A DNA stretch of 25,922 bases from a virus (IMGVR_UViG_3300032282_004584:1-25922), one strand, 5' to 3'. Counted from the stretch's first letter, positions 1-24,243 are shown. Numbers and translations are program-made. Notes: generated from the sequence alone by a model not told the origin.

Positions 1-3000
1 ACTTCATATTGTTCTCCATCTACATCAACAGTAAAATACTTTTGGTTACCTGAAGCAAAAAATACATCTTTAACGTCTATAACTTTTAAGTCTTTTCCAT
101 ATAAATTACTTAAAGAAGCCATATAAGGCATGTCTTTAGCTATTTTTATTACATTTCCAACATTACCTCCAGTTTCCATTTTTGAAAACATTTCTTTAGA
201 TATTTTTTTTAATTCCATATTTAAGTCTTCTAACCAAAAGTCTCTATCACTTCGTAATTTATCTAAAGTTTTATTATGGTTTTCAAATATTTCATTGTAT
301 TTCTTTGCGTAATCATCATAAGCTTCTTTATCTTGAGCTTTTCCACTTTTAATATAAGTCAAACCTAATTCATTAAGTTTTTCCATTCCTTCTTTTTGCT
401 CTTTATTGAACTTAGCATATTGTTCATTAAATAACTCTTCGTATTCTTTATAGATACTATTTATTTTATTAGAAACTTCTGTGTATTTTTTCCCTAAGTA
501 TTCTAATCTATCCAATTTATTTTCAAGATTACCTCCAGTTTCTTTTTTATCATTTTTAAAGCTTTCTTTTATGTTATGGATTTCTGCCATCAACAAAGAT
601 TTATCTCTGTCTGTTGAATATTCTTTTCCGTCAAAAGTTATAAATCCTTTCTCTATATCTTCTAAAATATGTTCAAACTTTAATTCTTGTGGCTGTGAAT
701 TTTCAAATCTTGTAACTCTTTTAACTAATACTCCATCTTTTGTATAGCCTTCAATTTTCATAATATAACTAGAAGGTTTTTCTGTTATAGTATTTCCTTT
801 GGCTAAATAATATAAATTTTCCATTATTTTTGGTTTTTCAATTGTTTCTAATTTTGTATAATATTTTGGGTCTTCTTTTAAATGTTCTTTTGCTATGCTT
901 TTTGCAGATTGTTCTGGAGTAATTTGACGTTGGTATAACTTTTCTGCTGTTCCAATATGTTCTTTTTCTGCTTCTATTCCTTTTTTAAGTTCTCCACCTA
1001 ATTCCATTATTTGCTCATCAAAAGTAACAACATTGTTTATATCGTCGTAGTTGTTTACTCTTATTTTATTTTCTTTAATATATTCTTTTACGTTATTATA
1101 GTCTTCTTCATTTGGAAATTTATAAACTGACCTAATCACGCTTGATATATCTTTACCATTAAAATCATTTAAAAAATCAAAATGATATTTTCCAGTTTTT
1201 TGTACGTAATCTCTTCCACCTATGGCTACATTTTGTATTTGTTTACTTACTAAATCTTTCGACTCAAAATTTAAACTACCATCTGCGTTTTTAGTTACAG
1301 CATAATATAAAGTTTTGGTTTTATCTCCTATTATTTCTACTCTATCTAAATCTTTATCTACTTCAAACATTACTTTAGCCGCGTCTTTAGCTTTTTCTAT
1401 TCCATTTACTTTATCAAATAAAGAATGGTACATTACATCAACATTTGGAGTTTTTATAAGTCCATGTATGCTAAAATAAATATCTGCTTTGTTTATATTT
1501 CCACCTGTTTGCATTTGTATTAAATGTTGTTTGTTATTACCTATCTCAAAAGATGCTTCACCTAAAGCAAGTTCTTTCACTCTATTTAAAAAATTATTAT
1601 ATCTTACATTTCTATCTTCAAAACTACCTTTGCCATAATCTTCTATATTTTCTACATAATCTAATCCTCTTAGCTTTTTACTAATTAGTATTATTGAATT
1701 TATCCAATCTACAGATATTGAAGTTCCATCTTTTAATTCAAATTCTGTTAACCCATTTTGATTTGGTTTATTTTTTTGTTGCCATTTTTTAAATTCAATT
1801 TCTCCTCCAAATTCCATTTTAGTAACTCCAAGTTCAGCAAGTTTTTTGTTAAATTTATCAATTTCTTTTTGCTCTCTTTTTATCATGTTTTCATATTGAG
1901 TATAATTGGCATTGAAAGTTCTCCAAGATTTAATCAAATAATCTTTATATTCTTTTTGACTTTGTAAATATTTTTCTTTGCTGTAATCAAAGTTTTTATT
2001 TGCTCCTCTTTCAACTATTGTTTCCCAAGAAGTATCATTTGTTCTCCACGAATCTGGTTTATCTTCTCTTGATAATTTTTCTACTTCTAAATTTGAAAGT
2101 TTTGAATTTTCTTTTGCTTCATTAAGTTTAACTTCATATTTAGCAATAGCATTTTTAGCATAAGAAATTTGCTCTTGAATTTTTTGAGCTTTAGTCATTT
2201 TTTTATACTGCTCATTTAATTTTTCATATTCTGGATTACTCTTTTTATTAGGTAAAGTAGTATGAACTATGTATCTTAAATGCAGTTTTTGAATATTGTA
2301 ACCTCCAGCTATTATAACTTCTGTTGAAAAATAATATTCTTTTTCTTCTCTAACTATTATACATGAAATTGTTATAGAACCTTGTTGTTTTGAGAATTTT
2401 AAATCTTTTATTGAATCTGTTTTTTCTAAATAATTTCCTATTGCTTTAGTTAAGTCCATTACAAGCATAAATTGATACATTTCAATATCCCAATCCGATA
2501 GCTTTATTTTTCCTTCTTCATTTATTGCTTTAATCCATTTTTCAGTTAATTCATCTTGATAAGGCTTTACTTTTTCTAAAATTATATTTAAAGGTGAGTT
2601 TTGAATTGGTCCTCCTAAATCCATTTTTAATTCTTTAGCATCAATTTTTGCTGCTTTACCTCCCATAACTGCACTATATACTCTACCCATACCCCATTGT
2701 TCTTCAGATTTTACTGTTGGTCTTACGCTTTGTGGGTTTGTATTATATGCTCCTACTCCTTTGTTATAAATTTGTTGAAGTCCTTTTTTAGAAACTTTAG
2801 TATCTTTTGCTATTTCTTTTAAATCATGGCTTTCATTTTTATCATAGCCATATTTTTTATTATATTTTTGTTTGTAAGTTACTGGACCACCTTCTTTTTT
2901 CTTACTATACTTTTTATCGATTTCTTTTTGGATTAAGTCTTTCATATATGGCCAACCTTTGTCACTTTTATCTACCCATTTAAGCATTGCTACTGTTCCA

Positions 3001-3665
3001 GCAATTCTAAAATCTTTATGGTGACGAGCAACATAGCTTCTCCATTTTTTATACATCCATTCTTCATTATCTGTCCAATATCCACGTTTTAAAACTCTTT
3101 CTAAATTTTTAAAAGCTTCGTTGCCAAAAATGTTGCCTCCCATATCCCAAACTTTAGGATATTTTTGTTTAACCATTTTAGCAAAATTATATATTTTTTT
3201 ACTTGGCAAATGGTTTGGGTTAAATTCTATTTTACCACCTCCAGCAAATTCTTCTGGGTCTTCATCTACTCCAACATCACTTCCATGAATAGGTACTCCA
3301 TTTCCAGCGCTTTGATTTATTTTACTTAATTCTTTCCAATGTTTTTGAGAAGCTTCTTTATTTACAACAAACTCATCTCCTTCAACTTCAATTTTTTTAC
3401 CTCCATCTACTTCAACTGGTATTCCACCTAATGAATTTCCATTTTTATCGTAGTGAGGTTTACCTTTTAAAAGTCCACCATCAGTTCCATCAGTTGTTAC
3501 TCCTTGTTTTGGAGAATCTAAGCCGTCATTGTTAATATCAATAAGTTTATCTAAATTTTGTTTAGTAGCTTTTTTGTTAATAATAACTTGGCCAGCTTCC
3601 ATTTTTGTAGGGTTATTTTTATTTCCTACTATTATAGATGTTTTTTTATGTTTCCAACCTGCCAT
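1..3665 (-). CDS. Large multidomain (polyvalent/polyprotein-like) protein, >1,220 aa, 3' end runs off the window
   Basis: Hand translation from ATG at 3665 (MAGWKHKKTSIIVGNKNNPTKMEAGQVIINK...) stays open to base 1, with frame checked at several points. It is absent from the ORF track because it has no stop in the window. It contains a GGLLKGKPH..GGIPV..IEVEGDEFVVNK module, a DUF5824-like segment (LQQIYNKGVGAY..RP..EQWGMGRVYS), a DUF5661-like segment (GIEAEKEH..IAKEHLKEDPKYYTKL) and 8 xxxGGx[ILV] linkers. Confidence 0.88.
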   Translation of the reverse strand, partial: MAGWKHKKTSIIVGNKNNPTKMEAGQVIINKKATKQNLDKLIDINNDGLDSPKQGVTTDGTDGGLLKGKPHYDKNGNSLGGIPVEVDGGKKIEVEGDEFVVNKEASQKHWKELSKINQSAGNGVPIHGSDVGVDEDPEEFAGGGKIEFNPNHLPSKKIYNFAKMVKQKYPKVWDMGGNIFGNEAFKNLERVLKRGYWTDNEEWMYKKWRSYVARHHKDFRIAGTVAMLKWVDKSDKGWPYMKDLIQKEIDKKYSKKKEGGPVTYKQKYNKKYGYDKNESHDLKEIAKDTKVSKKGLQQIYNKGVGAYNTNPQSVRPTVKSEEQWGMGRVYSAVMGGKAAKIDAKELKMDLGGPIQNSPLNIILEKVKPYQDELTEKWIKAINEEGKIKLSDWDIEMYQFMLVMDLTKAIGNYLEKTDSIKDLKFSKQQGSITISCIIVREEKEYYFSTEVIIAGGYNIQKLHLRYIVHTTLPNKKSNPEYEKLNEQYKKMTKAQKIQEQISYAKNAIAKYEVKLNEAKENSKLSNLEVEKLSREDKPDSWRTNDTSWETIVERGANKNFDYSKEKYLQSQKEYKDYLIKSWRTFNANYTQYENMIKREQKEIDKFNKKLAELGVTKMEFGGEIEFKKWQQKNKPNQNGLTEFELKDGTSISVDWINSIILISKKLRGLDYVENIEDYGKGSFEDRNVRYNNFLNRVKELALGEASFEIGNNKQHLIQMQTGGNINKADIYFSIHGLIKTPNVDVMYHSLFDKVNGIEKAKDAAKVMFEVDKDLDRVEIIGDKTKTLYYAVTKNADGSLNFESKDLVSKQIQNVAIGGRDYVQKTGKYHFDFLNDFNGKDISSVIRSVYKFPNEEDYNNVKEYIKENKIRVNNYDDINNVVTFDEQIMELGGELKKGIEAEKEHIGTAEKLYQRQITPEQSAKSIAKEHLKEDPKYYTKLETIEKPKIMENLYYLAKGNTITEKPSSYIMKIEGYTKDGVLVKRVTRFENSQPQELKFEHILEDIEKGFITFDGKEYSTDRDKSLLMAEIHNIKESFKNDKKETGGNLENKLDRLEYLGKKYTEVSNKINSIYKEYEELFNEQYAKFNKEQKEGMEKLNELGLTYIKSGKAQDKEAYDDYAKKYNEIFENHNKTLDKLRSDRDFWLEDLNMELKKISKEMFSKMETGGNVGNVIKIAKDMPYMASLSNLYGKDLKVIDVKDVFFASGNQKYFTVDVDGEQYE

Positions 3666-3666
3666 T

Positions 3667-4512
3667 TTAAAGTCCTCCTATTGTATAAATAAATTCTTTA
3701 GTAGTTCCACCTTTTTCATAACGAATATCTGGGTTACTACTGTCAAAAGTCGTGTTTGTGCCATCTGCGAGTTTTATATTAGTAAATTTACCATCTTTAT
3801 TTGGAAATACTAAATATGTAGTTCCTATGTAATCTTGACTTTGATATTTATACAATTCAGAAGATTCGCTCAACTCAACAATATTTTCTGCTTTCACTCC
3901 ATCAACTTTTTCAACTACTTTTTTTCTTCCAAAATTATCCCATCCAACATAACCTTCAGTTAAAAAATTCATAGCTTCACGACCTGTTTTAATATCATAT
4001 CCTGCATCGACTTTTAAGTTTTGATATGCTTCTATGCCCGACATACCTTTTCCATCAAATGTTACAATCTTTCTTAAATTTAAAAATGCTTCATAAACAC
4101 GACCATACTTCATTAAATATAATTCTTTAGTTAATTTATCATATTCAATGTTATTTCTAACCTTACTTATTTTATCTTCAAGATTTTTTATTTTATTTTT
4201 CCACTCCTCTGTTTTATCAATTTGTTTTCTTTGATAAACTTTTGGAATGTTTTTATTAGTTGTAAAATAAACCCCATACTCTTTTAATCCACTTGACTTA
4301 ACAAGATTTTCATTAAGTAAAAATTCAGTAATTATTCCATTCGGACTTCCATGAAATACAACTAAAGGCTCTCCATTGTCATCAACGACTTTACTTGCAT
4401 TTTTAGGGTCATTTTCCCAATCCCCAAACCAATTTTTAAAAGCAGAAGTGCGAACTAATTTATATTGTTCGGCAGTCAAGTTGCTTGGTTTTCCATTAGG
4501 TGCTAAATTCAT
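3667..4512 (-). CDS. ART-PolyVal-like ADP-ribosyltransferase-fold protein with C-terminal FxYxIGGL tag
   Basis: Motifs FKNWFGDW..SKVVDDNGEPLVVFHGS, GVYFT, VYEAFLNLRK, DGV and YLVF..NIKLADGTNTTFDSSNPDIRY match the ART-PolyVal domain of phage/plasmid polyvalent proteins. Confidence 0.72.
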   Translation of the reverse strand: MNLAPNGKPSNLTAEQYKLVRTSAFKNWFGDWENDPKNASKVVDDNGEPLVVFHGSPNGIITEFLLNENLVKSSGLKEYGVYFTTNKNIPKVYQRKQIDKTEEWKNKIKNLEDKISKVRNNIEYDKLTKELYLMKYGRVYEAFLNLRKIVTFDGKGMSGIEAYQNLKVDAGYDIKTGREAMNFLTEGYVGWDNFGRKKVVEKVDGVKAENIVELSESSELYKYQSQDYIGTTYLVFPNKDGKFTNIKLADGTNTTFDSSNPDIRYEKGGTTKEFIYTIGGL

Positions 4513-4832
4513 AAACCTCCTATCTGGTATTCAAATTTTGATGAAATTTCACCTCCATCTTTCATTACTTTATTTTTAATTATTTCTGTTTCAACAATTA
4601 TAAAATTTTTTTTAAAATCATTTCCAAATTTTACCTCTTCAAAATCCTTTAATAATTTTTCTTTTGAATTTGAAAATTTAACGTAATTAGTATAAATTCC
4701 TTGATTATCTAATAAACAATATTTATATTCTCCGACTTTACTAAATTTTTGATTTTTAGAATTAGTAGCAATAGAAAAATAATCTGACTTATTTCTCTTT
4801 TTTATTGTATTTGGTTTAACTAATCTGCCCAT
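4509..4832 (-). CDS. Hypothetical protein with C-terminal MKDGG...FEYQIGGL tag
   Basis: 107-aa ORF with ATGA overlap to the next gene. It shares its C-terminal motif with both neighbours. Confidence 0.8.
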   Translation of the reverse strand: MGRLVKPNTIKKRNKSDYFSIATNSKNQKFSKVGEYKYCLLDNQGIYTNYVKFSNSKEKLLKDFEEVKFGNDFKKNFIIVETEIIKNKVMKDGGEISSKFEYQIGGL

Positions 4833-4834
4833 TT

Positions 4835-5563
4835 TTATAGCCCTCCTATTGCATATTCAAAGTTTTTAATAATTCCACCACTATTATAAGTATCTTTATT
4901 AGATAAGTTTATTATGTTGGCGTTTTCTATATAGTTAATTTCAAGTTCTGGTATTAAGTAATGTTTTTTCAAAGTTCCTTTACCGTGTCCTATTTTTTCT
5001 GCTATACTTTTTAATGTTTCACTAAATATTTTTTTTCTATCTTTTTCTTCTTTTGGTAAATCTTTAGCTTCTAATTTTTTTATAATCCAATTATTAGCTG
5101 AATAACCTCTAATGTCTTTTGCTGTAATATTAAATTCACTTAAATATCTATTAACTCTATCATTAGAAATTTTAAATCCATTAGAAGTTACAAATACATC
5201 ATTTGAATTATTATTTTTTATTACTTCTTTTAAAGCTTTTGCTATTTTAGCGTCACTAAAACTTTTTTCTTGTTCAACCCCAGATTTACCAACATATTTT
5301 AAAGTAATATTATTACCATTTATTTTAATGTGTCTCTTTTTTAATCCTGTAACTCCATAATGACCATTTTCTGCTGAGTTATTATTTCCTACTCTTTCTC
5401 CTGTTTTATCCATAATAGAAATAACAAGAGCCGTCAATTTATCTTTCTCATTCTTACTATTCAAATCTCTAGTAAGATTTAACCTTAATTTTCTTAAATT
5501 ATTCGCAAGAGTTTCGATGTGGTTCTTTTTCTTTTCCCATCTATTTGCAATTTCTTGTTCCAA
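4835..5563 (-). CDS. DNA topoisomerase IB catalytic-core protein with C-terminal FxYxIGGL tag
   Basis: The TopIB catalytic pentad is present in order: R (TGERVGN), K (YVGKSG), R (TAKDIRG), H and Y (IGHGKGTLKKHY). The H-to-Y spacing of 9 matches vaccinia H265/Y274. It also has a YGVTGL motif and a TTG start. Confidence 0.85.
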   Translation of the reverse strand: MEQEIANRWEKKKNHIETLANNLRKLRLNLTRDLNSKNEKDKLTALVISIMDKTGERVGNNNSAENGHYGVTGLKKRHIKINGNNITLKYVGKSGVEQEKSFSDAKIAKALKEVIKNNNSNDVFVTSNGFKISNDRVNRYLSEFNITAKDIRGYSANNWIIKKLEAKDLPKEEKDRKKIFSETLKSIAEKIGHGKGTLKKHYLIPELEINYIENANIINLSNKDTYNSGGIIKNFEYAIGGL

Positions 5564-7500: not shown

Positions 7501-8103
7501 TTATTTTTTTGGGTATATATAAATAATTCCTCTTTTCACTTCTGTTGAAGTTTCGTTACTGTTATAATGGTAATCATATTTTCCATAAATACTTTCAAGG
7601 TAAGGCTTCATGGTGTCATGGCTAATAATTACTCCATCGTAACTATCATATCCTAATTTTGGCTCATTTGGAACGTAGCAATCGTGAACTATTATACATG
7701 GTTTTAATCCACTTTCTTTTATTAGTTTTAATTCGTTTAATAAAGGCAAAGTTTGCCAATGTGAATCTATAAAAATAATAGTATTATCGTCACAGTTTTT
7801 TAACATTTCAGGTAACATTTGAACACTATTTCCTAATAAAGAAACTATATTAGTTAATCCTTTAGCTCTTTGTAACCCTATATTTCTAAATTGTTCATTT
7901 ATTTCTACTGTAATTACTTTTTCAAAATTTTCCGCAAACCATTTTGTTGAGCCAAAAACACAAGAGCCTAATTCTACAAGTGTTTTTATTTCATATTTTT
8001 CTTTAAGTTTTAAAAACTCTTGGCAAGCAAAAGTATCATTGTTTAATGGCTTAGATTGATAAGGCATTAAAATTGGTTCGTTTGGTAATAAATCTGTATA
8101 CAT
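7501..8103 (-). CDS. Class I SAM-dependent methyltransferase (Methyltransf_24-like)
   Basis: VELGSCVFGST motif I, VITVEIN, GNS, IFIDSHW and IIVHD. Confidence 0.7.
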   Translation of the reverse strand: MYTDLLPNEPILMPYQSKPLNNDTFACQEFLKLKEKYEIKTLVELGSCVFGSTKWFAENFEKVITVEINEQFRNIGLQRAKGLTNIVSLLGNSVQMLPEMLKNCDDNTIIFIDSHWQTLPLLNELKLIKESGLKPCIIVHDCYVPNEPKLGYDSYDGVIISHDTMKPYLESIYGKYDYHYNSNETSTEVKRGIIYIYPKK

Positions 8104-8115
8104 ATATATTTTTTT

Positions 8116-8787
8116 TTATTTATATTCTATCCATTCTCTATTTGCTGAATGGGCGTGGTATTGAGTTTTTTGATAAGTTACTCCATATTCTACATTTGGA
8201 ACTATGTCTTCTCTTATAAAAAACATGTTTGTTGTTGCGATTTGATGAACCAAAGTATATCCAAACTTATTTCCTAAAACTTTAAAAGCTTCAAAACTGC
8301 CTCCATAATAATCATTTTCTCCCCAAGTATGAGTAGGATTGTATTTTATTACTTTATTTTCTCCATTATCTATACAACCATTAAATTCATTTATGATAAC
8401 TCTTGGTTTATATTCTTTAAGTATATTTTCTAAAACCCAAACGTCATTTCCATCTATATCTATAGAAAGTAAATCAAATTCAGTTGGTACTTTATATTTT
8501 TTAAAAAGATCGCAAATATTTTCTGCGGTAATAAATTCTTCTTTGATTAAAGGATTCCCATCACTTTTTCCATCCATTAAAAGCGCTTTCCAGCCTTTTT
8601 CTAAAAGGTATTTACTATTACTTAGTCCTAAATTGAGAGAACTTGCTCCAAAATCTACTAAGTATTTATTTGTTACACCTATGTTTTGAAAAATATAATC
8701 AAATATAGCTTCTTCTCCAAATTGAGCGTAAATTTTTGTGGGTTTAATATTCTTAATATTTAAAACCCAATCTAATTGTCTATTCAT
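8116..8787 (-). CDS. FkbM-like methyltransferase
   Basis: YAQFGEEAIFDYIF, VDFGA, FITAENI, FDLLSIDIDGND, PRVIINEFN and NMFF. Confidence 0.75.
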   Translation of the reverse strand: MNRQLDWVLNIKNIKPTKIYAQFGEEAIFDYIFQNIGVTNKYLVDFGASSLNLGLSNSKYLLEKGWKALLMDGKSDGNPLIKEEFITAENICDLFKKYKVPTEFDLLSIDIDGNDVWVLENILKEYKPRVIINEFNGCIDNGENKVIKYNPTHTWGENDYYGGSFEAFKVLGNKFGYTLVHQIATTNMFFIREDIVPNVEYGVTYQKTQYHAHSANREWIEYK

Positions 8788-9715
8788 ATATTATTTTTTT
8801 TAAATTTTGAGCAAAATTATCCCAAGTGTAATTATTTATTACTTTATTATAACCATTATTAGCTATTATTTTTCTTTCTTCTTCGTTAATTAGATAGTGA
8901 TTTATTTTGTCTATTAAATCATCAAAATTTTTCCAAATAACTAAATCTTTTCCGTCGGTAAAATCTTTTTCTATTTCTGGATAATAATGAGTAAGACAAA
9001 AAGCTCCACTTCCTAATATTCTATAAAGCCTATCAGAACTATATCTTTTATATTCAAAATGACTTAAATTTATAGCTATTTTTGAAGAACGATATGCTTT
9101 TCCTTCTTCATGATAATTATCTATATTTCCATCAGCGAAACCATTCCAAAAATTTCCATACAAACCAAAATAATTCCCGAATCTATTTTTTAAAATTTTA
9201 ACCATTTCATTTCTATAATTGGTTAAAGGAAAATTTATAATATTAGAATAATTACTTCCTAAAAAAAGTATAGGTTGATATTTTATATTTGTTTCTCCAC
9301 GAGGAGTAAAATTAGTAGAGTCATATCCTACTTGTAAATAATCTGCTTTTACTCCATTTTGTAAACAAGTTTCTACATCATTCATATTTGTAAATAGCGT
9401 ACTATGTATAATTTTACCTATTTGTAAATAATGAGTCGGCAAAGGGTATCTTACGTCTCCTGTCCAATTTACAACTATTGAGTTATTTGCCATGTATTCA
9501 ATTGTTGAAATATCTAAAACTTCTCCACTTTGTAAATGCATAAACACAAAATCAGGTTTAAAACAATTAAACTCATTTAATAAATTAGTTTGTAACAAAG
9601 AAGATTTGGATTGATAAGTTGTCCAATCAAAATGAATACAATTAAATTCTAAATTTAAAGCTCTTTGCAAATCTACATTAGATTTACCCATCATAACATG
9701 TAATAACTTTTTCAT
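8780..9715 (-). CDS. CgeB-like (Glyco_trans_1_2) GT-B glycosyltransferase
   Basis: NWTGD, ILFLGS, YRSSKIAINLS, SSDRLYRILGSGAFCLT and IANNGYNKV..YTW. Confidence 0.82.
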   Translation of the reverse strand: MKKLLHVMMGKSNVDLQRALNLEFNCIHFDWTTYQSKSSLLQTNLLNEFNCFKPDFVFMHLQSGEVLDISTIEYMANNSIVVNWTGDVRYPLPTHYLQIGKIIHSTLFTNMNDVETCLQNGVKADYLQVGYDSTNFTPRGETNIKYQPILFLGSNYSNIINFPLTNYRNEMVKILKNRFGNYFGLYGNFWNGFADGNIDNYHEEGKAYRSSKIAINLSHFEYKRYSSDRLYRILGSGAFCLTHYYPEIEKDFTDGKDLVIWKNFDDLIDKINHYLINEEERKIIANNGYNKVINNYTWDNFAQNLKKIIYE

Positions 9716-10344
9716 TCTGTTGGATTTACTAGTTTATAAGGAGGTGGAATAGTTTCTTTTGCTTTTCCTAAATTGTTAATATAATTTCTAATATTGCTTT
9801 CGTGTAAATGTAATGTTTTAAGAGTTTTAGATGGGTTTATAACATTATAGCCATTAGATTCTAATAGATAAGCTATTGAATTGTCGCATCCAGCAACGCC
9901 TAAAGTAAAATCTGCTCCATTTATTTTAGGTACTTCTCCCATAAATATCCACGTGTCTTGAGAATCACTTCTATTAAAGTGTATTGATGTTTTATTTATT
10001 AAATCCCATCTTGATAACGCTAAACACGTTTTATTGTTTAAATAAGTTTTAGCTTTATTTATAGTTTCTTCTGGTAGAATTATATCTAAATTAGCTATGA
10101 TGTTAATATCTTCTTTTTTTGTTAAAGCAAAATAGTCGTTATAAGTTGGTCTTTTATTTGTTATTATTTGGGTAACTTTATAAAAATTAAGTTTTGAACT
10201 AATATTTTCAAAATCTTTTTCTTCACAAAACATTATTATTTTATCTATACTTGGATTGTTTAAATTTTCTATGAAGCAAGTTTCAAGTTCTAAATTTCTT
10301 GATTCATTTTTATCTATATAAAAGTTAACTAAAAGATTATTCAT
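9712..10344 (-). CDS. Putative GT-A-fold glycosyltransferase-like protein
   Basis: IIANLDI, ALSRWD, SQDTWIF, GVAGCDN and HLH motifs are typical of virus-associated GT-like proteins. Start at 10344 (ATGA overlap) is preferred over 10362. Confidence 0.55.
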   Translation of the reverse strand: MNNLLVNFYIDKNESRNLELETCFIENLNNPSIDKIIMFCEEKDFENISSKLNFYKVTQIITNKRPTYNDYFALTKKEDINIIANLDIILPEETINKAKTYLNNKTCLALSRWDLINKTSIHFNRSDSQDTWIFMGEVPKINGADFTLGVAGCDNSIAYLLESNGYNVINPSKTLKTLHLHESNIRNYINNLGKAKETIPPPYKLVNPTE

Positions 10345-10961
10345 AGTGGAATGTATTGACAAATTTTACTTTCATTGTATTTTTGAATATTTTTTGAAAC
10401 TATTTCATTTCTTTCATTTGAATTTATACTTGATTTATGCTTTGAGTTAGAGTAATCTAAAGCGTATAAATATTCTTCAGTTCCTATAAGCATTGGATAA
10501 TCTCCTTTTTTACCAATTATTCTATTAGTATAATCTACGTGCTCAAATCCATATATTCCAAAACTTTCGTCAAATGCTCCAACTCTATCTATAGCAGATT
10601 TTTTCATGAATAAAAATACTCCACCGCAATTATTATAAACTTCAATATTTTTAACAGTTTCTTTGTAAGAGTGTAAATTTTTAGACAAAAATAATAAATG
10701 TTCTTGGTTAGAACTTATAAAAAAATCTATCCAATTATCTTTTATAGGAAAGCAATCATCGTCAAATAAAAAAACATATTCACAATCTTTAAGATTTCTA
10801 AGGCATTCATTTTTTCTATAAGCTACTCCTTTTCTTTCTGAATCAAAATCAACAGCTATATATAGTTTTACATTTTCCATATTTGTATGCTTTAAAATTT
10901 GTTCTTTAAATAACCGCAAACAATCTGGTCTATTATAAGTTGTACAACCTATTCCTATCAT
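10341..10961 (-). CDS. GT2 family glycosyltransferase
   Basis: TTYNRP, GVAYRKN, FLFDDD (DxD) and VGAFDESFGIYGFEHVDY. Confidence 0.82.
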   Translation of the reverse strand: MIGIGCTTYNRPDCLRLFKEQILKHTNMENVKLYIAVDFDSERKGVAYRKNECLRNLKDCEYVFLFDDDCFPIKDNWIDFFISSNQEHLLFLSKNLHSYKETVKNIEVYNNCGGVFLFMKKSAIDRVGAFDESFGIYGFEHVDYTNRIIGKKGDYPMLIGTEEYLYALDYSNSKHKSSINSNERNEIVSKNIQKYNESKICQYIPL

Positions 10962-19599: not shown

Positions 19600-19657
19600 T
19601 TGCAAATATAATTAAATGTTACAAATGTATAACTATAAGTTATTAACGTTTGATTGT
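19600..19657 (-). promoter_or_regulatory. Duplicated promoter element, copy 2
   Basis: 30-bp identity with 14629-14658 and partial similarity for a further ~28 bp. It contains two TAnnTTTG boxes. Confidence 0.8.
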
Positions 19658-20826
19658 TAAAATAATTTTAATTGACTAATTTCTTCGTTATTATCTAATC
19701 CTTCTTTACTTATTGGAGCGCTGGCTCTTCTTAAAGCCATATTTTTATTATTTTTTAATCTTAAATAAACAGAAAATTGACAACAACTTATCTCTACGCC
19801 AAAAGTAGTAAACCTTCCTATTTCTGTTATTTCATTTAAAACATTTAAACTTTCTCCTTTAAAATTAAAAAACTCATTTTGATTATCTCTAATTGCTTGA
19901 ATAACTTTAGCTCCTACTTTTGTAGAGATGCTTATACCTAAGTCTTTATAAAACCAATTTATAGTAGACATTGCTCCTACTCCTGGCGCAACAAAGTCAT
20001 CATCTTCATCTAAATTACCAAATTTATTAGTTGAATTTTTTAATAATAACTCAGTTCCTATTTCTGGCATCCTAGCTAAATTAGTGCTAAAATGATATCC
20101 GTAATAGTTTCCAATTCCTCTTATAGATGTTAAAAAATCAAATGATTGTTCCATTGAAGGTTTAGATTTGTAAAATTCTACAAATTTTGGTCCTAAATAA
20201 GTAAACCAATAAACTATATCACTAGCTCTACCTTTTCTTTGATTATTAAAATTTGATTTAATAAAGTCATCATAAGGAGTATTTATTTCTCTACAATAGT
20301 TTCTAGATTCTGTTTGTAAACTTGTACGTAATTCAGTTGTGCCGTATATTTTAGTATTTTGTTTTCTAGCATTTTCTAAATTCACCATACATTTTTGGAC
20401 ATAATTATAGTCATTAACTAATGAATTATATTTTATAAAAGGACTATCTGTATCTTTAGTTATTAAACTTATAGTATTTGATGGTCCATAAAATTTAACA
20501 ATAGCTGCGTTTATTAGCTTATCTTCAAAAGTACAATCAGGATTATAAAACACATTATTGTTTAGCCAAATAATTTCATCGTGAAAAGACCTATTAGGAT
20601 GGAAATATGGTACAGATTTATTATCTACTATAAATCCATATCCAAATTTATTTTCTTCATTCTCTAAATGTTTAAAAGTATCAAAATTACATTTTTTTTG
20701 AAATCTAACTTCATATTCTCTACGATTCATTTCATGAACAAAATCTCTTATAAGTTCTTTTTTTTCATTTGGAATTAACTCAATAATTTTTTTTGAATCT
20801 AATTCCATTAAGTTTTTATTGCTCAT
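19657..20826 (-). CDS. aGPT-Pplase1-like / amino acid:DNA transferase-like DNA hypermodification enzyme (HhH-glycosylase-like fold), divergent
   Basis: Ordered motifs FHPNRSFHD, LTSIRGIGNYYGYHFSTNL, FVAPGVGA and VEISCCQFSVY parallel the family's F.N..R..D, G.G.F.AY....DL, GPGA and IE..LCE..KY. Confidence 0.6.
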   Translation of the reverse strand: MSNKNLMELDSKKIIELIPNEKKELIRDFVHEMNRREYEVRFQKKCNFDTFKHLENEENKFGYGFIVDNKSVPYFHPNRSFHDEIIWLNNNVFYNPDCTFEDKLINAAIVKFYGPSNTISLITKDTDSPFIKYNSLVNDYNYVQKCMVNLENARKQNTKIYGTTELRTSLQTESRNYCREINTPYDDFIKSNFNNQRKGRASDIVYWFTYLGPKFVEFYKSKPSMEQSFDFLTSIRGIGNYYGYHFSTNLARMPEIGTELLLKNSTNKFGNLDEDDDFVAPGVGAMSTINWFYKDLGISISTKVGAKVIQAIRDNQNEFFNFKGESLNVLNEITEIGRFTTFGVEISCCQFSVYLRLKNNKNMALRRASAPISKEGLDNNEEISQLKLF

Positions 20827-20831
20827 ATTTA

Positions 20832-21527
20832 TTATTTTTTAAAAAAACAATCATAACCACATATTTGGTTAACGTAAATAATTAGTGGCTCAACTTTATA
20901 ATTTTTATATTTAGACTTAAATAATTCAATTGTTTTTTCCATTTTTTCTTTTTTACCGTGAAATTCAATAAATAAAGTTTCTGGAAAATAATCTAACAAA
21001 TCTTCTATAAAAGTGTATTCTGCAGATTCAATATCTATTTTTATTATATCTGGATTTATTTTATTTATTAAATATTTGAAATTTACATTTGGAACTTCGT
21101 CATATTCTCCAAATCTCATTTTACTAATTATAGAAGTAGAGCAATGTTTATTTCCACTAGAAGATTTATATATTTTTATTTTTTCTTCTTCTAATCCACT
21201 TACAGCTCCAAAAATTAACTCTACTTGACTTTCGTTTTCAAAAGTTTTTGATATTTTTTCAAAATTTCTTTTATCACATTCTACAGAATAAACTTTTTTT
21301 GCTTCAGAGTCTAAAGCTATTTGAGTAAAAGCTCCAATGTTACAACCTAAGTCTAAACAAATTTTATTCTTATAGTCTACTTCTTTTAGCAAATAATTAT
21401 TTATGCTTTGGTCGATCATTTTTTTATCTACTTGCTCTTCAGCTTTTAAAATTTCGACGTATTTTTTCTTTAAACTTCTTTTATCTTCTTTTGATATAGG
21501 TAAATTTGGCAATTTTATTCTTTCCAT
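20832..21527 (-). CDS. FkbM-like SAM-dependent methyltransferase
   Basis: CLDLGCNIGAF, VYSVEC, GAV, IIKIDIESAEY and FIEFH. Confidence 0.8.
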   Translation of the reverse strand: MERIKLPNLPISKEDKRSLKKKYVEILKAEEQVDKKMIDQSINNYLLKEVDYKNKICLDLGCNIGAFTQIALDSEAKKVYSVECDKRNFEKISKTFENESQVELIFGAVSGLEEEKIKIYKSSSGNKHCSTSIISKMRFGEYDEVPNVNFKYLINKINPDIIKIDIESAEYTFIEDLLDYFPETLFIEFHGKKEKMEKTIELFKSKYKNYKVEPLIIYVNQICGYDCFFKK

Positions 21528-21907
21528 TATTTTTGTATTAAATTTGAAACAATATGAACTATCTCTAAATCAGGATGGTTTTTTTGAATTATGTCTTTTT
21601 GCAATTCATCATCTTCAAAAAACCTAACTACATTTAACCCTCTAGATTTTAATTCTTCAATTTTTTTAGCTTTATGTAATGCCGAATAAGTTCTCGCTTG
21701 TTCAGTATGGTTACCTCTTTGTTCTAAAGTCATTGGATTAAAATATACTTTATTAGATATTTTTCTTTTTCTAAGTTGATTTAATATTAAATTTTTTTCG
21801 TCAATGCATCTTCCAGTTATAATAACATCTTCTTTACTCATTGGGTTAATACCTATAGAAATAACTCCATCAAAATCGTAACCATATATGTAATCTATTC
21901 CGTTCAT
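21527..21907 (-). CDS. Minimal (capless) HAD-superfamily phosphatase
   Basis: YDFDGVI (motif I), ITGR (II), HK (III) and FFEDD (IV). Confidence 0.8.
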   Translation of the reverse strand: MNGIDYIYGYDFDGVISIGINPMSKEDVIITGRCIDEKNLILNQLRKRKISNKVYFNPMTLEQRGNHTEQARTYSALHKAKKIEELKSRGLNVVRFFEDDELQKDIIQKNHPDLEIVHIVSNLIQK

Positions 21908-23082
21908 TATATTATTTGTTTTTTAGTTGTTTCTGTTAATTTTCTTTTTGCTAAAGCTTCGCATTCATTTAAAGCTTCTGAAAACATCATTTGTTTTGGT
22001 GGTGTTTTTTGAGTAAATGCTGATGGTCCTCTTAAAGCTCCAACTATACCCATTTCTCTTGCTACTTGTAAATATCTAATAGCGTCAATAACTACTCCAG
22101 CAGAATTTGGAGAATCTTGAACAGATAATTGAGCATCTAAAATTACTGGTGAACCACCAAATCCTTCTAATTCTAATCTAAAATTAGCTACTTTATTATC
22201 TCCATAATAAGATATATACTCAGAAGGACCAGCATGTAAAAAAGAATCTTCAGTAGAAATTCCACGAATATCATTTTGCGCTCTAATTACATTTTCTTTT
22301 GAAATCTTTTTAGACTTTAATCTTGATTTGTCTTCCATATTTAAAAAATCTGTATTTCCTCCAACATTTCTTTGGATATGGCATTTAACATTATGTCCTC
22401 TTTCAAAAGCTAATTCTTGAAGCATTTGTGATAAAATCGAAGCTCCAAACTGAGAACGCATATCATCTCCTATTAGTGGTATTCCAGCATCAATAAATCT
22501 TTTTTCCCATGCTAAATCAGAAGCTATAAATACTGGTATACAGTTAACAAATGAAATTTTAGTTTCTAAACAAATTTCTGCCCAAAATTCTGTTGCTTTT
22601 TGAGAACCTACTGGCAAATAATTGATTAAAATTTCAACTTCATGATGTTTTAATTGTGAAATAATTTTTTCTTTCCATTCTTTAGCTTTTTTATCTGTCC
22701 AATTTGTTCTGTTCATTTCTGTAGAATTTCTTAATTCTTCAGAAACTAAAAATCTATTACTTTCTGGATAACCATCCATTAATAATGCATAACCATCAAT
22801 TACTGGAGCAGAATAAACTGGTGATTGATTTTTTATTTCTTTTACTATATCCCAAGCACAGTTTGGTCTTTGTTTTAATGCTTTTCCTAAAGGTAAATCG
22901 ATTTTGCGTTCATCAATATCAAAAGCGCAAACAAATTCTATATTTTCTGCTTTATAACCTCCAATGTCTTGTCTCATAATTCCATTAGATACTTGATTGT
23001 TTTCGCTGTAAAATTGTACTCCTTCTACTAACGATTTAGCGCAATTTCCAGCGCCAATAATTGCTACTTTGATTTTTTTCAT
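21907..23082 (-). CDS. ino1: Myo-inositol-1(3)-phosphate synthase, bacterial/archaeal type
   Basis: IIGAGNCAKSLVEG, NYLPVGS, FVNCIPVFIA, GDDMRSQFGAS, NVGGNTDFLNM, RLKSKKISK, GPSEY..DNK and DSPNSAGVVIDAIR. Confidence 0.95.
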   Translation of the reverse strand: MKKIKVAIIGAGNCAKSLVEGVQFYSENNQVSNGIMRQDIGGYKAENIEFVCAFDIDERKIDLPLGKALKQRPNCAWDIVKEIKNQSPVYSAPVIDGYALLMDGYPESNRFLVSEELRNSTEMNRTNWTDKKAKEWKEKIISQLKHHEVEILINYLPVGSQKATEFWAEICLETKISFVNCIPVFIASDLAWEKRFIDAGIPLIGDDMRSQFGASILSQMLQELAFERGHNVKCHIQRNVGGNTDFLNMEDKSRLKSKKISKENVIRAQNDIRGISTEDSFLHAGPSEYISYYGDNKVANFRLELEGFGGSPVILDAQLSVQDSPNSAGVVIDAIRYLQVAREMGIVGALRGPSAFTQKTPPKQMMFSEALNECEALAKRKLTETTKKQII

Positions 23083-23086
23083 GTTT

Positions 23087-23986
23087 TTAAAAATTAAATA
23101 AGTTAAATTGTTTTTTGTTTTCTTTCATATAGTATTTAGGTCTAATATGCACTGATTGTTTTGGTTCCATAATATCAAATTTAAGATTTCCTTTTTCATC
23201 AACAAAATAATCTGGCCAAGTTAAAAAGTCAATACCACTTTCTAACATTACTTCATTTGCTACTCTTCTTAGTTCTTTTCTTAATTCAATATCTCCAAAA
23301 AATGGTTTGCCTTTATATAATCCTGATTTTGGAATTTTTCTGCTTTCATCTTCAATAGGTAATAACTGCACTATACTACAATTATATTTTGAAGCGTATT
23401 CGCAGTATCTATTAAATAAATCTTTAGTAGCTTCTAATGGGTTAACTTGTCTAGCTAAATGAAATCTAATATCAATATTGCCAAAATACATTATAATATG
23501 TTTGTAAGTTGATAAATCTAAATTCATTTTTAAAAATCCATGTAAAGTTTTACCATCATTTCTTGATATTGCATAAGATTCGTCTGGCCAAACTGATATA
23601 CTATGAGAATCTCCAATAACTAAATTTTCTCTTTCTGGCAAATTTATCAATTCTATATTTAAGTAGTCATTAAAAGTTTCTAACTTTCTTTTAACAGAAA
23701 AATCGTTTAATTGAAAACCATCTAATGAATAAACTTTACCATTATATTCAGTTAACTTTTTAGCTCTAACAATTATATCATCACTTAAGCCTCCAATTAT
23801 GTTAAAAGAACCAATTTTAAAATTTGGACCGTGATAAATGATAAGTCTATCGTAATTGTTCCAATTTTCGTTTTCAGTAATTATTTCAGCATTAAATAAC
23901 TTTGAAATAATATTTACCATGCCTGCAGAATGTGAATTTTCTGATTTTGCTGGATTATTTATTATGCCTATTATTGCTGTTTTCAT
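23087..23986 (-). CDS. Protein with C-terminal SGNH/GDSL-like acyl-hydrolase/transferase domain
   Basis: LVIGDSHS (block I), YFGNID (block III-like) and QSVH (block V-like). The N-terminal domain is unassigned. Confidence 0.5.
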   Translation of the reverse strand: MKTAIIGIINNPAKSENSHSAGMVNIISKLFNAEIITENENWNNYDRLIIYHGPNFKIGSFNIIGGLSDDIIVRAKKLTEYNGKVYSLDGFQLNDFSVKRKLETFNDYLNIELINLPERENLVIGDSHSISVWPDESYAISRNDGKTLHGFLKMNLDLSTYKHIIMYFGNIDIRFHLARQVNPLEATKDLFNRYCEYASKYNCSIVQLLPIEDESRKIPKSGLYKGKPFFGDIELRKELRRVANEVMLESGIDFLTWPDYFVDEKGNLKFDIMEPKQSVHIRPKYYMKENKKQFNLFNF

Positions 23987-24243
23987 TTTTCTAAATAATT
24001 ATTTAAACTACCTAAATAAGCTACTGCGTCTAAAAGATTATCTTCTTTATGATTATAAGACTCTCTAGATAACTTTAATGCAACTAATGCTTTATACATA
24101 AATTCTGCGTTTATTTGTTGACCAGTCATTCCTGATAATATTTTAGCAGCTCTTTCCATTCCTTCTTCAAATGGACCGTATTGTCTTTCTTTTTCTTCTT
24201 TGTGCAAATTGACAATTTCATTTGCTTTTTCTAGTATATTCAT
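23983..24243 (-). CDS. DUF6378-like all-alpha protein (putative nucleotide diphosphohydrolase-related)
   Basis: ILEKANEIVN..RQYGPFEE..ALKLSR....KEDNLLDAVAY. Confidence 0.72.
   Translation of the reverse strand: MNILEKANEIVNLHKEEKERQYGPFEEGMERAAKILSGMTGQQINAEFMYKALVALKLSRESYNHKEDNLLDAVAYLGSLNNYLEK

What the first reader, a model, noticed from the sequence alone, without database searches (positions are those of the whole stretch)
1..3665. Hidden >1,220-aa ORF built like a polyprotein, with domains separated by [MFK]xxGGx[ILV] linkers
Seen: eight linkers, FAGGG-KI (3234-3248), KKEGG-PV (2886-2900), MDLGG-PI (2610-2624), MEFGG-EI (1803-1817), MQTGG-NI (1500-1514), MELGG-EL (993-1007), KETGG-NL (531-545) and METGG-NV (165-179). 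They cut the protein into unrelated ~85-265-aa blocks, and the recognisable DUF5824-like and DUF5661-like segments each begin just after a linker. Known: ASFV polyproteins are cleaved at Gly-Gly-X and adenovirus protease cleaves (M/I/L)XGG-X. Polyvalent proteins of phages are thought to be delivered into the host with the DNA. Inference: this is a phage polyprotein matured at di-Gly sites into many small effectors. The short linker DNA (ATGGAAnnnGGWGGW) could also act as a junction for domain shuffling.
Basis: partly seen in the sequence, partly recalled or inferred. Interest (0 to 1): 0.85.

Follow-up and report, generated by a model that had tools for sequence, protein, structure and literature searches.

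The report
Motif-punctuated cargo polyprotein of tailless phage
A very large protein of an uncultured, likely tailless bacterial virus is a chain of small swappable domains whose borders carry the same five-residue signal, which is likely cut by a viral protease so that many host-takeover proteins would be packed into the particle as one precursor.

Summary
Confirmed. The 1,221-aa ORF (cut by the contig end) has all eight motifs. In 121 homologues [MFY]xxGG occurs 811 times against 80 in shuffles, and homology breakpoints cluster on it. Blocks are gained, lost and reordered there (135 architectures in 145 proteins). The three linkers modelled are the disordered gaps between folded domains. Codons vary freely, so the signal is peptide-level. 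Three upstream solo genes (ART, unknown, topoisomerase IB) end in the motif plus an FxYxIGGL tail; two of these modules sit between motifs in relatives.

Relatives are 60-100-kb viruses with an FtsK/HerA-type ATPase, a jelly-roll-like capsid candidate, many membrane proteins, no terminase found, and a conserved HExxH gluzincin that lies 2-4 kb from the cassette in a divergent clade. The N-terminal domain also occurs, motif-bracketed, in tape-measure proteins, and T5 pb2 is cut at R|AEGG, so the cut may precede, not follow, GG.

Cleavage is inferred, not shown (about 0.6); docking without cutting is the main rival. No adenain-like protease was found. Not found in my literature searches; the scan's notes hold only an analogous case with another motif.

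The parts
3..3665 (-). Mosaic polyprotein, 1,221 aa, C-terminus lost at the contig end; a close relative (P0001) is 1,824 aa
3516..3665 (-). Residues 1-50: looks like a degenerate first copy of the block-1 domain (seen by eye and in the model's strand-strand-strand-helix order; not tested by profile)
   Evidence: sequence
3276..3500 (-). Block-1 domain (GG-x-x-x-G-x-x-H...GG...E-x-E-G-x-E), no Pfam family; one copy per virus; also in tape-measure proteins
3234..3248 (-). Linker 1 FAGGG; [MFY]xxGG in 44 of 44 aligned rows; pLDDT<50 at 130-143
2886..3233 (-). Block 2, helical domain of unknown function (residues 145-260, including linker 2)
2886..2900 (-). Linker 2 KKEGG; commonest homology breakpoint (113 alignment ends); pLDDT<50 at 255-260; strict [MFY]xxGG in 30 of 44 rows
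2610..2885 (-). Block 3, DUF5824; a stand-alone 91-aa gene with the same borders in polinton-like-virus-type contigs
2610..2624 (-). Linker 3 MDLGG; motif in 44 of 44 rows; 88 alignment ends; pLDDT<50 at 351-355
1803..2609 (-). Block 4 (269 aa, unknown) ending in linker 4 MEFGG (1803-1817); all 4 homologues have a motif or terminus on both sides
1500..1802 (-). Block 5 (101 aa, unknown) ending in linker 5 MQTGG (1500-1514); replaced by another block in P0001
993..1499 (-). Block 6 (169 aa, unknown) ending in linker 6 MELGG (993-1007)
531..992 (-). Block 7: DUF5661 (residues 893-944), a decayed border LAKGN at 792-806, an unknown part, then linker 7 KETGG (531-545)
165..530 (-). Block 8 (122 aa, unknown) ending in linker 8 METGG (165-179); order of blocks 8 and 9 is reversed in P0001
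3..164 (-). Block 9 (54+ aa); N-terminal module of a motif protein in G007
3667..4512 (-). Solo ART-PolyVal gene ending YEKGG...FIYTIGGL; the same module lies between two motifs inside relatives' polyproteins
4509..4832 (-). Solo 107-aa gene without homologues in my set, ending MKDGG...FEYQIGGL
4835..5563 (-). Solo topoisomerase IB catalytic core (start may be the ATG at 5413) ending YNSGG...FEYAIGGL; found inside polyproteins of relatives

Best explanation
The ORF is a mosaic of small independent domains with a conserved [MFY]-[AEK]-x-G-G-x-[VILT] peptide at their borders, and it is likely a virion cargo precursor of a likely tailless, membrane-containing bacterial virus that a viral protease would cut at or beside each motif. 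Shown: the motif, its enrichment, its place at module borders and in predicted-disordered gaps, its peptide-level conservation, module shuffling, and its presence in all 14 virus records fetched. Inferred: packaging, cleavage and delivery into the host. Mechanism proposed: the single-copy block-1 protein and sister cassette proteins are packed during assembly; the conserved HExxH...E-A-D gluzincin of the morphogenesis cluster (my first candidate, about 55% given cleavage; block 1 itself about 25%) cuts the motifs, releasing about 6-30-kDa products (DNA-binding-like basic domains and enzymes such as ART, GNAT, zeta kinase, ParB, topoisomerase IB in relatives) that enter the cell with the DNA. 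A new domain would join the cargo by landing next to a motif, which explains the shuffling. The cut may lie before the AxGG (as in T5 pb2) or after GG (as for adenain and ASFV pS273R).
For: Motif 811 vs 80 shuffled in 121 proteins; 35% of 1,009 supported breakpoints within 5 aa vs 7.5% random, control pattern 2% vs 3%. Second, more diverse set: 605 vs 69, 98 of 104 long proteins with three or more motifs. 277 module families, 135 architectures in 145 proteins, median spacing 97 aa. Model of residues 1-355: low confidence only at 1-4, 130-143, 255-260, 351-355, pTM 0.39. All 16 codon pairs used. Modules exist as free genes with the same borders. 20 of 24 records chosen by the gluzincin alone carry block 1 once; the 3 fetched of the 4 without it still have motif polyproteins, 2.0-4.3 kb from the gluzincin gene. 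Capsid-candidate and membrane-protein leaders carry a related [FY]xNAxG motif (39 vs 8.3, pattern fitted after the fact), in a disordered leader in the capsid model. T5 pb2 is cut after R1127 (PMC10038345, passage), which is R|AEGG in the GenBank record. Same motif shape as adenain (M/I/L)XGG|X (PMC4246237, passages) and ASFV GG|X (PMC10308890, passages). Zincin processing of polyvalent proteins was proposed in PMC5512222 (section 8 read).
Against: No cultured virus, no proteomics: cleavage is unobserved. The window holds no structural or protease gene; the link to the virus group rests on relatives. Some motifs make little sense as domain-releasing cuts: 29 of 760 spacings are 25 aa or less, 4 of 145 proteins end within 6 aa of the last motif, and the window's solo genes carry two motifs in their last 17 residues. 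In ten other records the gluzincin is 8.8-19.9 kb from the cassette. Its peptidase activity is read from motifs only (best Pfam E 0.013). Known di-Gly viral proteases are cysteine enzymes, and none was found. Five of eight linkers were not modelled. pb2 has R, not M/F/Y, at the first position, and no profile linked pb2 to block 1. N4 virion RNA polymerase is packaged uncut despite a peptidase domain (PMC5512222).
Confidence: 0.6

Rival explanations
1. The motif is a docking peptide, never cut: each copy binds an inner virion protein (or block 1, whose tape-measure copies begin with the motif), tethering an intact beads-on-a-string protein and solo cargo.
For: Motifs 1-5 residues from the stop and closely spaced pairs; doubled motif in the FxYxIGGL tail of three solo genes, kept as peptide where the DNA differs (L105, L215); shared C-terminal tails in 5 of 33 genomes or loci. 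In adenovirus, cleaved precursors also bind the hexon cavity (PMC4246237), so docking and cutting can coexist.
Against: One anchor would suffice for a polyprotein, yet nearly every border is marked; 28 of 33 genomes or loci show no shared tail; a conserved peptidase-like gene travels with the cassette.
Confidence: 0.2
2. The motif is a flexible linker spread by duplication and by recombination between its short look-alike coding stretches, with no partner that reads it.
For: Gly-rich and disordered; first Gly codon is biased (GGT 64% vs 45% for other Gly); decayed borders exist (LAKGN; KKEGG).
Against: M/F/Y three residues before GG and V/I/L/T two after are kept across proteins with unrelated flanks and free synonymous change; present in all 14 records fetched.
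Confidence: 0.12
3. The linker DNA is a site-specific recombination site that shuffles cassettes.
For: Breakpoints cluster there.
Against: All 16 codon pairs; first codon varies among ATG, TTY and TAY; other positions near background usage. No recombinase among the core families annotated.
Confidence: 0.03
4. Cutting after GG exposes C-terminal di-glycine ends that are ligated to other proteins, as for ubiquitin-like modifiers.
For: Tails such as IGGL-stop and xxGGKL-stop leave 1-2 residues after GG, like ubiquitin precursors (recalled).
Against: No E1/E2 family in the Pfam scans (subsets of ORFs); modules share no fold.
Confidence: 0.05

Closest known systems
Polyvalent proteins of phages and conjugative elements (Iyer et al. 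2017, PMC5512222)
   Same: Multidomain mosaic; ART-PolyVal, Kinase-PolyVal, GNAT, zeta, ParB, RelA/SpoT, RadC domains in the family or cassette; proposed zincin processing and delivery with DNA.
   Different: A fixed motif at nearly every border (the words 'linker' and 'glycine' have 0 hits in that paper's main text; supplements not seen); peptidase is a separate core gene (HExxH text in only 8 of 120 polyproteins); virus looks tailless.
ASFV core polyproteins pp220/pp62 cut by pS273R at Gly-Gly-X (PMC10308890)
   Same: Large polyprotein with repeated di-Gly sites in a virus with an inner membrane (membrane inferred here).
   Different: Bacterial host; variable cargo rather than fixed shell proteins; no SUMO-protease-family enzyme found.
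Adenovirus maturation by adenain, (M/I/L)XGG|X and (M/I/L)XGX|G (PMC4246237)
   Same: Hydrophobic residue three before GG; two motif variants in cargo and structural precursors.
   Different: F/Y accepted; PF00770 absent in 5 of 5 records tested; many sites in one mosaic chain.
Tape-measure protein processing (T5 pb2 cut after R1127, PMC10038345; lambda gpH)
   Same: pb2 cut is R|AEGG; gpH has FATGG 733-737 and YATGG 778-782; block 1 occurs 7 times, motif-bracketed, in each of two giant proteins, one of them a confirmed tape-measure protein.
   Different: One cut in a tail protein; homology of pb2/gpH C-termini to block 1 unproven (gpH E 0.08, pb2 none).
Prokaryotic double jelly-roll viruses (Yutin et al. 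2018, PMC5894146)
   Same: FtsK/HerA-type ATPase, jelly-roll-like capsid candidate, inverted terminal repeats.
   Different: Those are about 7-18 kb with a double jelly-roll; these are 60-100 kb with a 230-aa single beta-sandwich candidate and DnaB/RecT genes.

Membership tests
Polyvalent proteins | Several unrelated domains in one chain, shuffled between relatives | tested here: met
Polyvalent proteins | Signature effector domains (ART-PolyVal, Kinase-PolyVal, ParB, GNAT) | tested here: met
   In homologues and the adjacent solo gene; not in the sequenced 1,221 aa itself
Polyvalent proteins | Encoded near virion genes and delivered with the DNA | tested here: inconclusive
   Near the morphogenesis cluster in relatives; delivery cannot be tested
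Polyvalent proteins | Fused zincin MPTase (about 36% of members) | tested here: inconclusive
   HExxH text in 8 of 120 homologues; separate gluzincin gene instead; window ORF is truncated
Adenain/pS273R di-Gly polyprotein systems | Hydrophobic-x-G-G substrate motif in precursors | tested here: met
Adenain/pS273R di-Gly polyprotein systems | Virus-encoded CE-clan cysteine protease | tested here: not met
   PF00770 in 0 of 5 records; no C48/C57/C5 hit among 85 + 148 ORFs scanned; a very remote member is not excluded
Adenain/pS273R di-Gly polyprotein systems | Cleavage after the second Gly | not testable with these tools
   needs N-terminomics
Tailed phages (Caudoviricetes) | Terminase, portal, HK97 capsid protein | tested here: not met
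   None among core families of 10 records or in Pfam/PHROG scans of subsets, apart from one weak 'major head protein' hit (E 0.004); the window itself lacks the structural region
Vertical jelly-roll viruses (Varidnaviria/Singelaviria) | FtsK/HerA packaging ATPase | tested here: met
   P-loop ATPase in 10 of 10 records with weak HerA (DUF87) and Zot hits, E 0.001-0.02; clade assignment from motifs
Vertical jelly-roll viruses (Varidnaviria/Singelaviria) | Jelly-roll major capsid protein | tested here: inconclusive

The most novel reading that the evidence does not exclude
An abundant, uncultured group of 60-100-kb tailless, membrane-containing, single-jelly-roll viruses of Bacteroidota-like hosts uses a universal [MFY]xxGG tag, read by a new gluzincin or by the block-1 domain, to load and release dozens of interchangeable effectors from polyproteins: a bacterial counterpart of ASFV/adenovirus di-Gly maturation that shares its motif with the long-unexplained cleavage of siphophage tape-measure proteins.
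Probability: 0.3. Interest if true: 0.9.

Novelty: new variant of a known kind. Interest (0 to 1): 0.76.

Why it matters
It gives a sequence rule that splits hundreds of unannotated viral giant proteins into their likely mature products (277 module families in 145 proteins), many of them candidate anti-defence or host-takeover enzymes. It makes the proposed processing of polyvalent proteins directly testable with a named site and two named candidate enzymes. It points to a large virus group without a cultured member (capsid candidate: 2,415 related proteins). The match between the motif and the mapped T5 pb2 cut suggests a test for what cuts tape-measure proteins.

Full report
Observation. The ORF 3..3665 (-) encodes 1,221 aa without a stop and runs off the contig, which is the whole held record. 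The fitted pattern gives 8 against 0.24 in shuffles; the unfitted GG count is 16 against 6.1 (p=0.0003); 35 other ORFs (6,327 aa) hold one motif. Pfam finds only DUF5824 and DUF5661. The three upstream genes (ART-PolyVal, a 107-aa unknown, topoisomerase IB core) each end in [YM]xxGG followed by FxYxIGGL, so the system extends to 5563. The rest of the window is replication and modification genes (RecT, DnaB, thymidylate synthase, glycosyltransferases).

The motif marks module borders. A search with residues 1-350 gave 518 proteins, of which the best 120 were listed and used. With the query they hold 811 [MFY]xxGG against 80 in shuffles. Of 1,009 breakpoints supported by three or more alignments, 35% lie within 5 residues of a motif against 7.5% for random positions; with all 1,655 breakpoints it is 25% against 7%; a control pattern gave 2% against 3%. 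So most breakpoints are not within 5 residues, as expected from ragged alignment ends and decayed or variant motifs. In 44 aligned rows the motif is present in all at linkers 1 and 3 and in 30 at linker 2. P0001, 76-97% identical per block, has an extra stretch after block 2, another block in place of block 5, and blocks 8 and 9 reordered, with the changed borders at motifs. Splitting 145 proteins at 905 motifs gives 911 segments of 45 aa or more, 277 single-linkage families and 135 architectures. A profile of block 1 found 3,455 clusters; among the 140 new proteins listed, the 104 of 400 aa or more hold 605 motifs against 69, and none lacks one. Block 3 is a free 91-aa gene with the same borders in polinton-like-virus-type contigs (class judged from gene layout), and the window's solo ART gene is an internal module elsewhere. 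An AlphaFold2 model of residues 1-355 has three confident domains and pLDDT under 50 only at the N-terminus and the three linkers; the other five linkers were not modelled.

The signal is a peptide. In 846 motifs from 123 ORFs all 16 Gly-Gly codon pairs occur and most positions follow background usage; the first Gly favours GGT (64% against 45%; related sequences are not independent). The IGGL tails overlap AGGAGG in the window but persist with other codons in L105.

Mechanism. I commit to proteolytic maturation of virion cargo (0.6). For: a hydrophobic residue three before and two after a di-Gly in disordered gaps is the shape of known maturation sites (PMC4246237 and PMC10308890, passages read); modules work as free genes; a peptidase-like core gene travels with the cassette; capsid and membrane proteins carry a related [FY]xNAxG motif, often in acidic leaders (39 against 8.3; fitted pattern). 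Block 1 also occurs seven times in each of two giant proteins, one a confirmed tape-measure protein, usually opened and often closed by the motif. T5 pb2 is cut after R1127 (PMC10038345, passage; figure S5G not seen), which reads R|AEGG in the GenBank record, one of only five GG pairs in 1,219 aa. This is a single look-alike case without shown homology, but it means the cut need not follow GG. Against: nothing has been seen cut; near-terminal and closely spaced motifs fit docking better; no cysteine protease of the adenain class was found; block 1, with invariant His and three Glu, is a second candidate enzyme or motif reader, though three incomplete records lack it.

Comparison and novelty. 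It works like a polyvalent protein (PMC5512222: passages and section 8 read) and is built like the ASFV polyproteins, but fails membership of the adenain/pS273R systems on the enzyme. My searches listed nothing on this motif or virus group; PMC5894146 (passages) describes prokaryotic jelly-roll viruses of 7-18 kb only; PMC11161782 and PMC10172136 (passages) gave context only. Supplements were not read. The scan's notes had no match by sequence and one analogous, different motif by words, not tested here. Verdict: real, new variant of a known kind, interest 0.76.

Noticed in passing
L165:13927-15734 (G002) and equivalents in G001-G042: An apparently undescribed group of 60-100-kb viruses with HerA-like ATPase, 230-aa beta-sandwich capsid candidate (2,415 relatives, no Pfam, no cultured match), gluzincin and inverted terminal repeats.
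   Followed up: partly
L198:16694-17392 and neighbouring small genes: Second motif [FY]xNAxG in acidic leaders of capsid and membrane proteins, often followed by basic stretches; possible maturation sites.
   Followed up: partly
P0241, P0243: 4,300-5,900-aa proteins (P0243 a tape-measure protein) with seven block-1 domains and 22-23 motifs each: the system may extend to tailed phages.
   Followed up: partly
L356:243-2804 (lambda gpH), L357:8122-11781 (T5 pb2): gpH has four [MFY]xxGG, all in its last 121 residues; the pb2 cut site is R|AEGG.
   Followed up: partly
L003-L005, many of L012-L083: DUF5824 block is a stand-alone gene in polinton-like-virus-type contigs, about 60% identical to the window's block 3.
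   Followed up: partly
window 19657-24243: 5-hmdU DNA kinase helical domain, FkbM methyltransferase, inositol-1-phosphate synthase and unknown genes with thymidylate synthase and MazG nearby: likely a DNA base hypermodification cluster.
   Followed up: no
window 7501-10961: Cluster of methyltransferase-like and glycosyltransferase genes, possibly for virion or DNA glycosylation.
   Followed up: no
L164:15870-19012, L002:14793-17461: MoxR-like AAA+ ATPase and a partner gene sit inside the cassette in 6 of 10 records and carry almost no motifs.
   Followed up: no
L339, L344, L347, L091: Clade-specific shared C-terminal tails on cassette proteins (KC[FY]LRP[FY]Y; GGWGIxLxW).
   Followed up: partly
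L165:10923-11234 and homologues: A 104-116-aa membrane protein keeps [MY]xxGG at residues 31-42 in 5 of 5 records.
   Followed up: no
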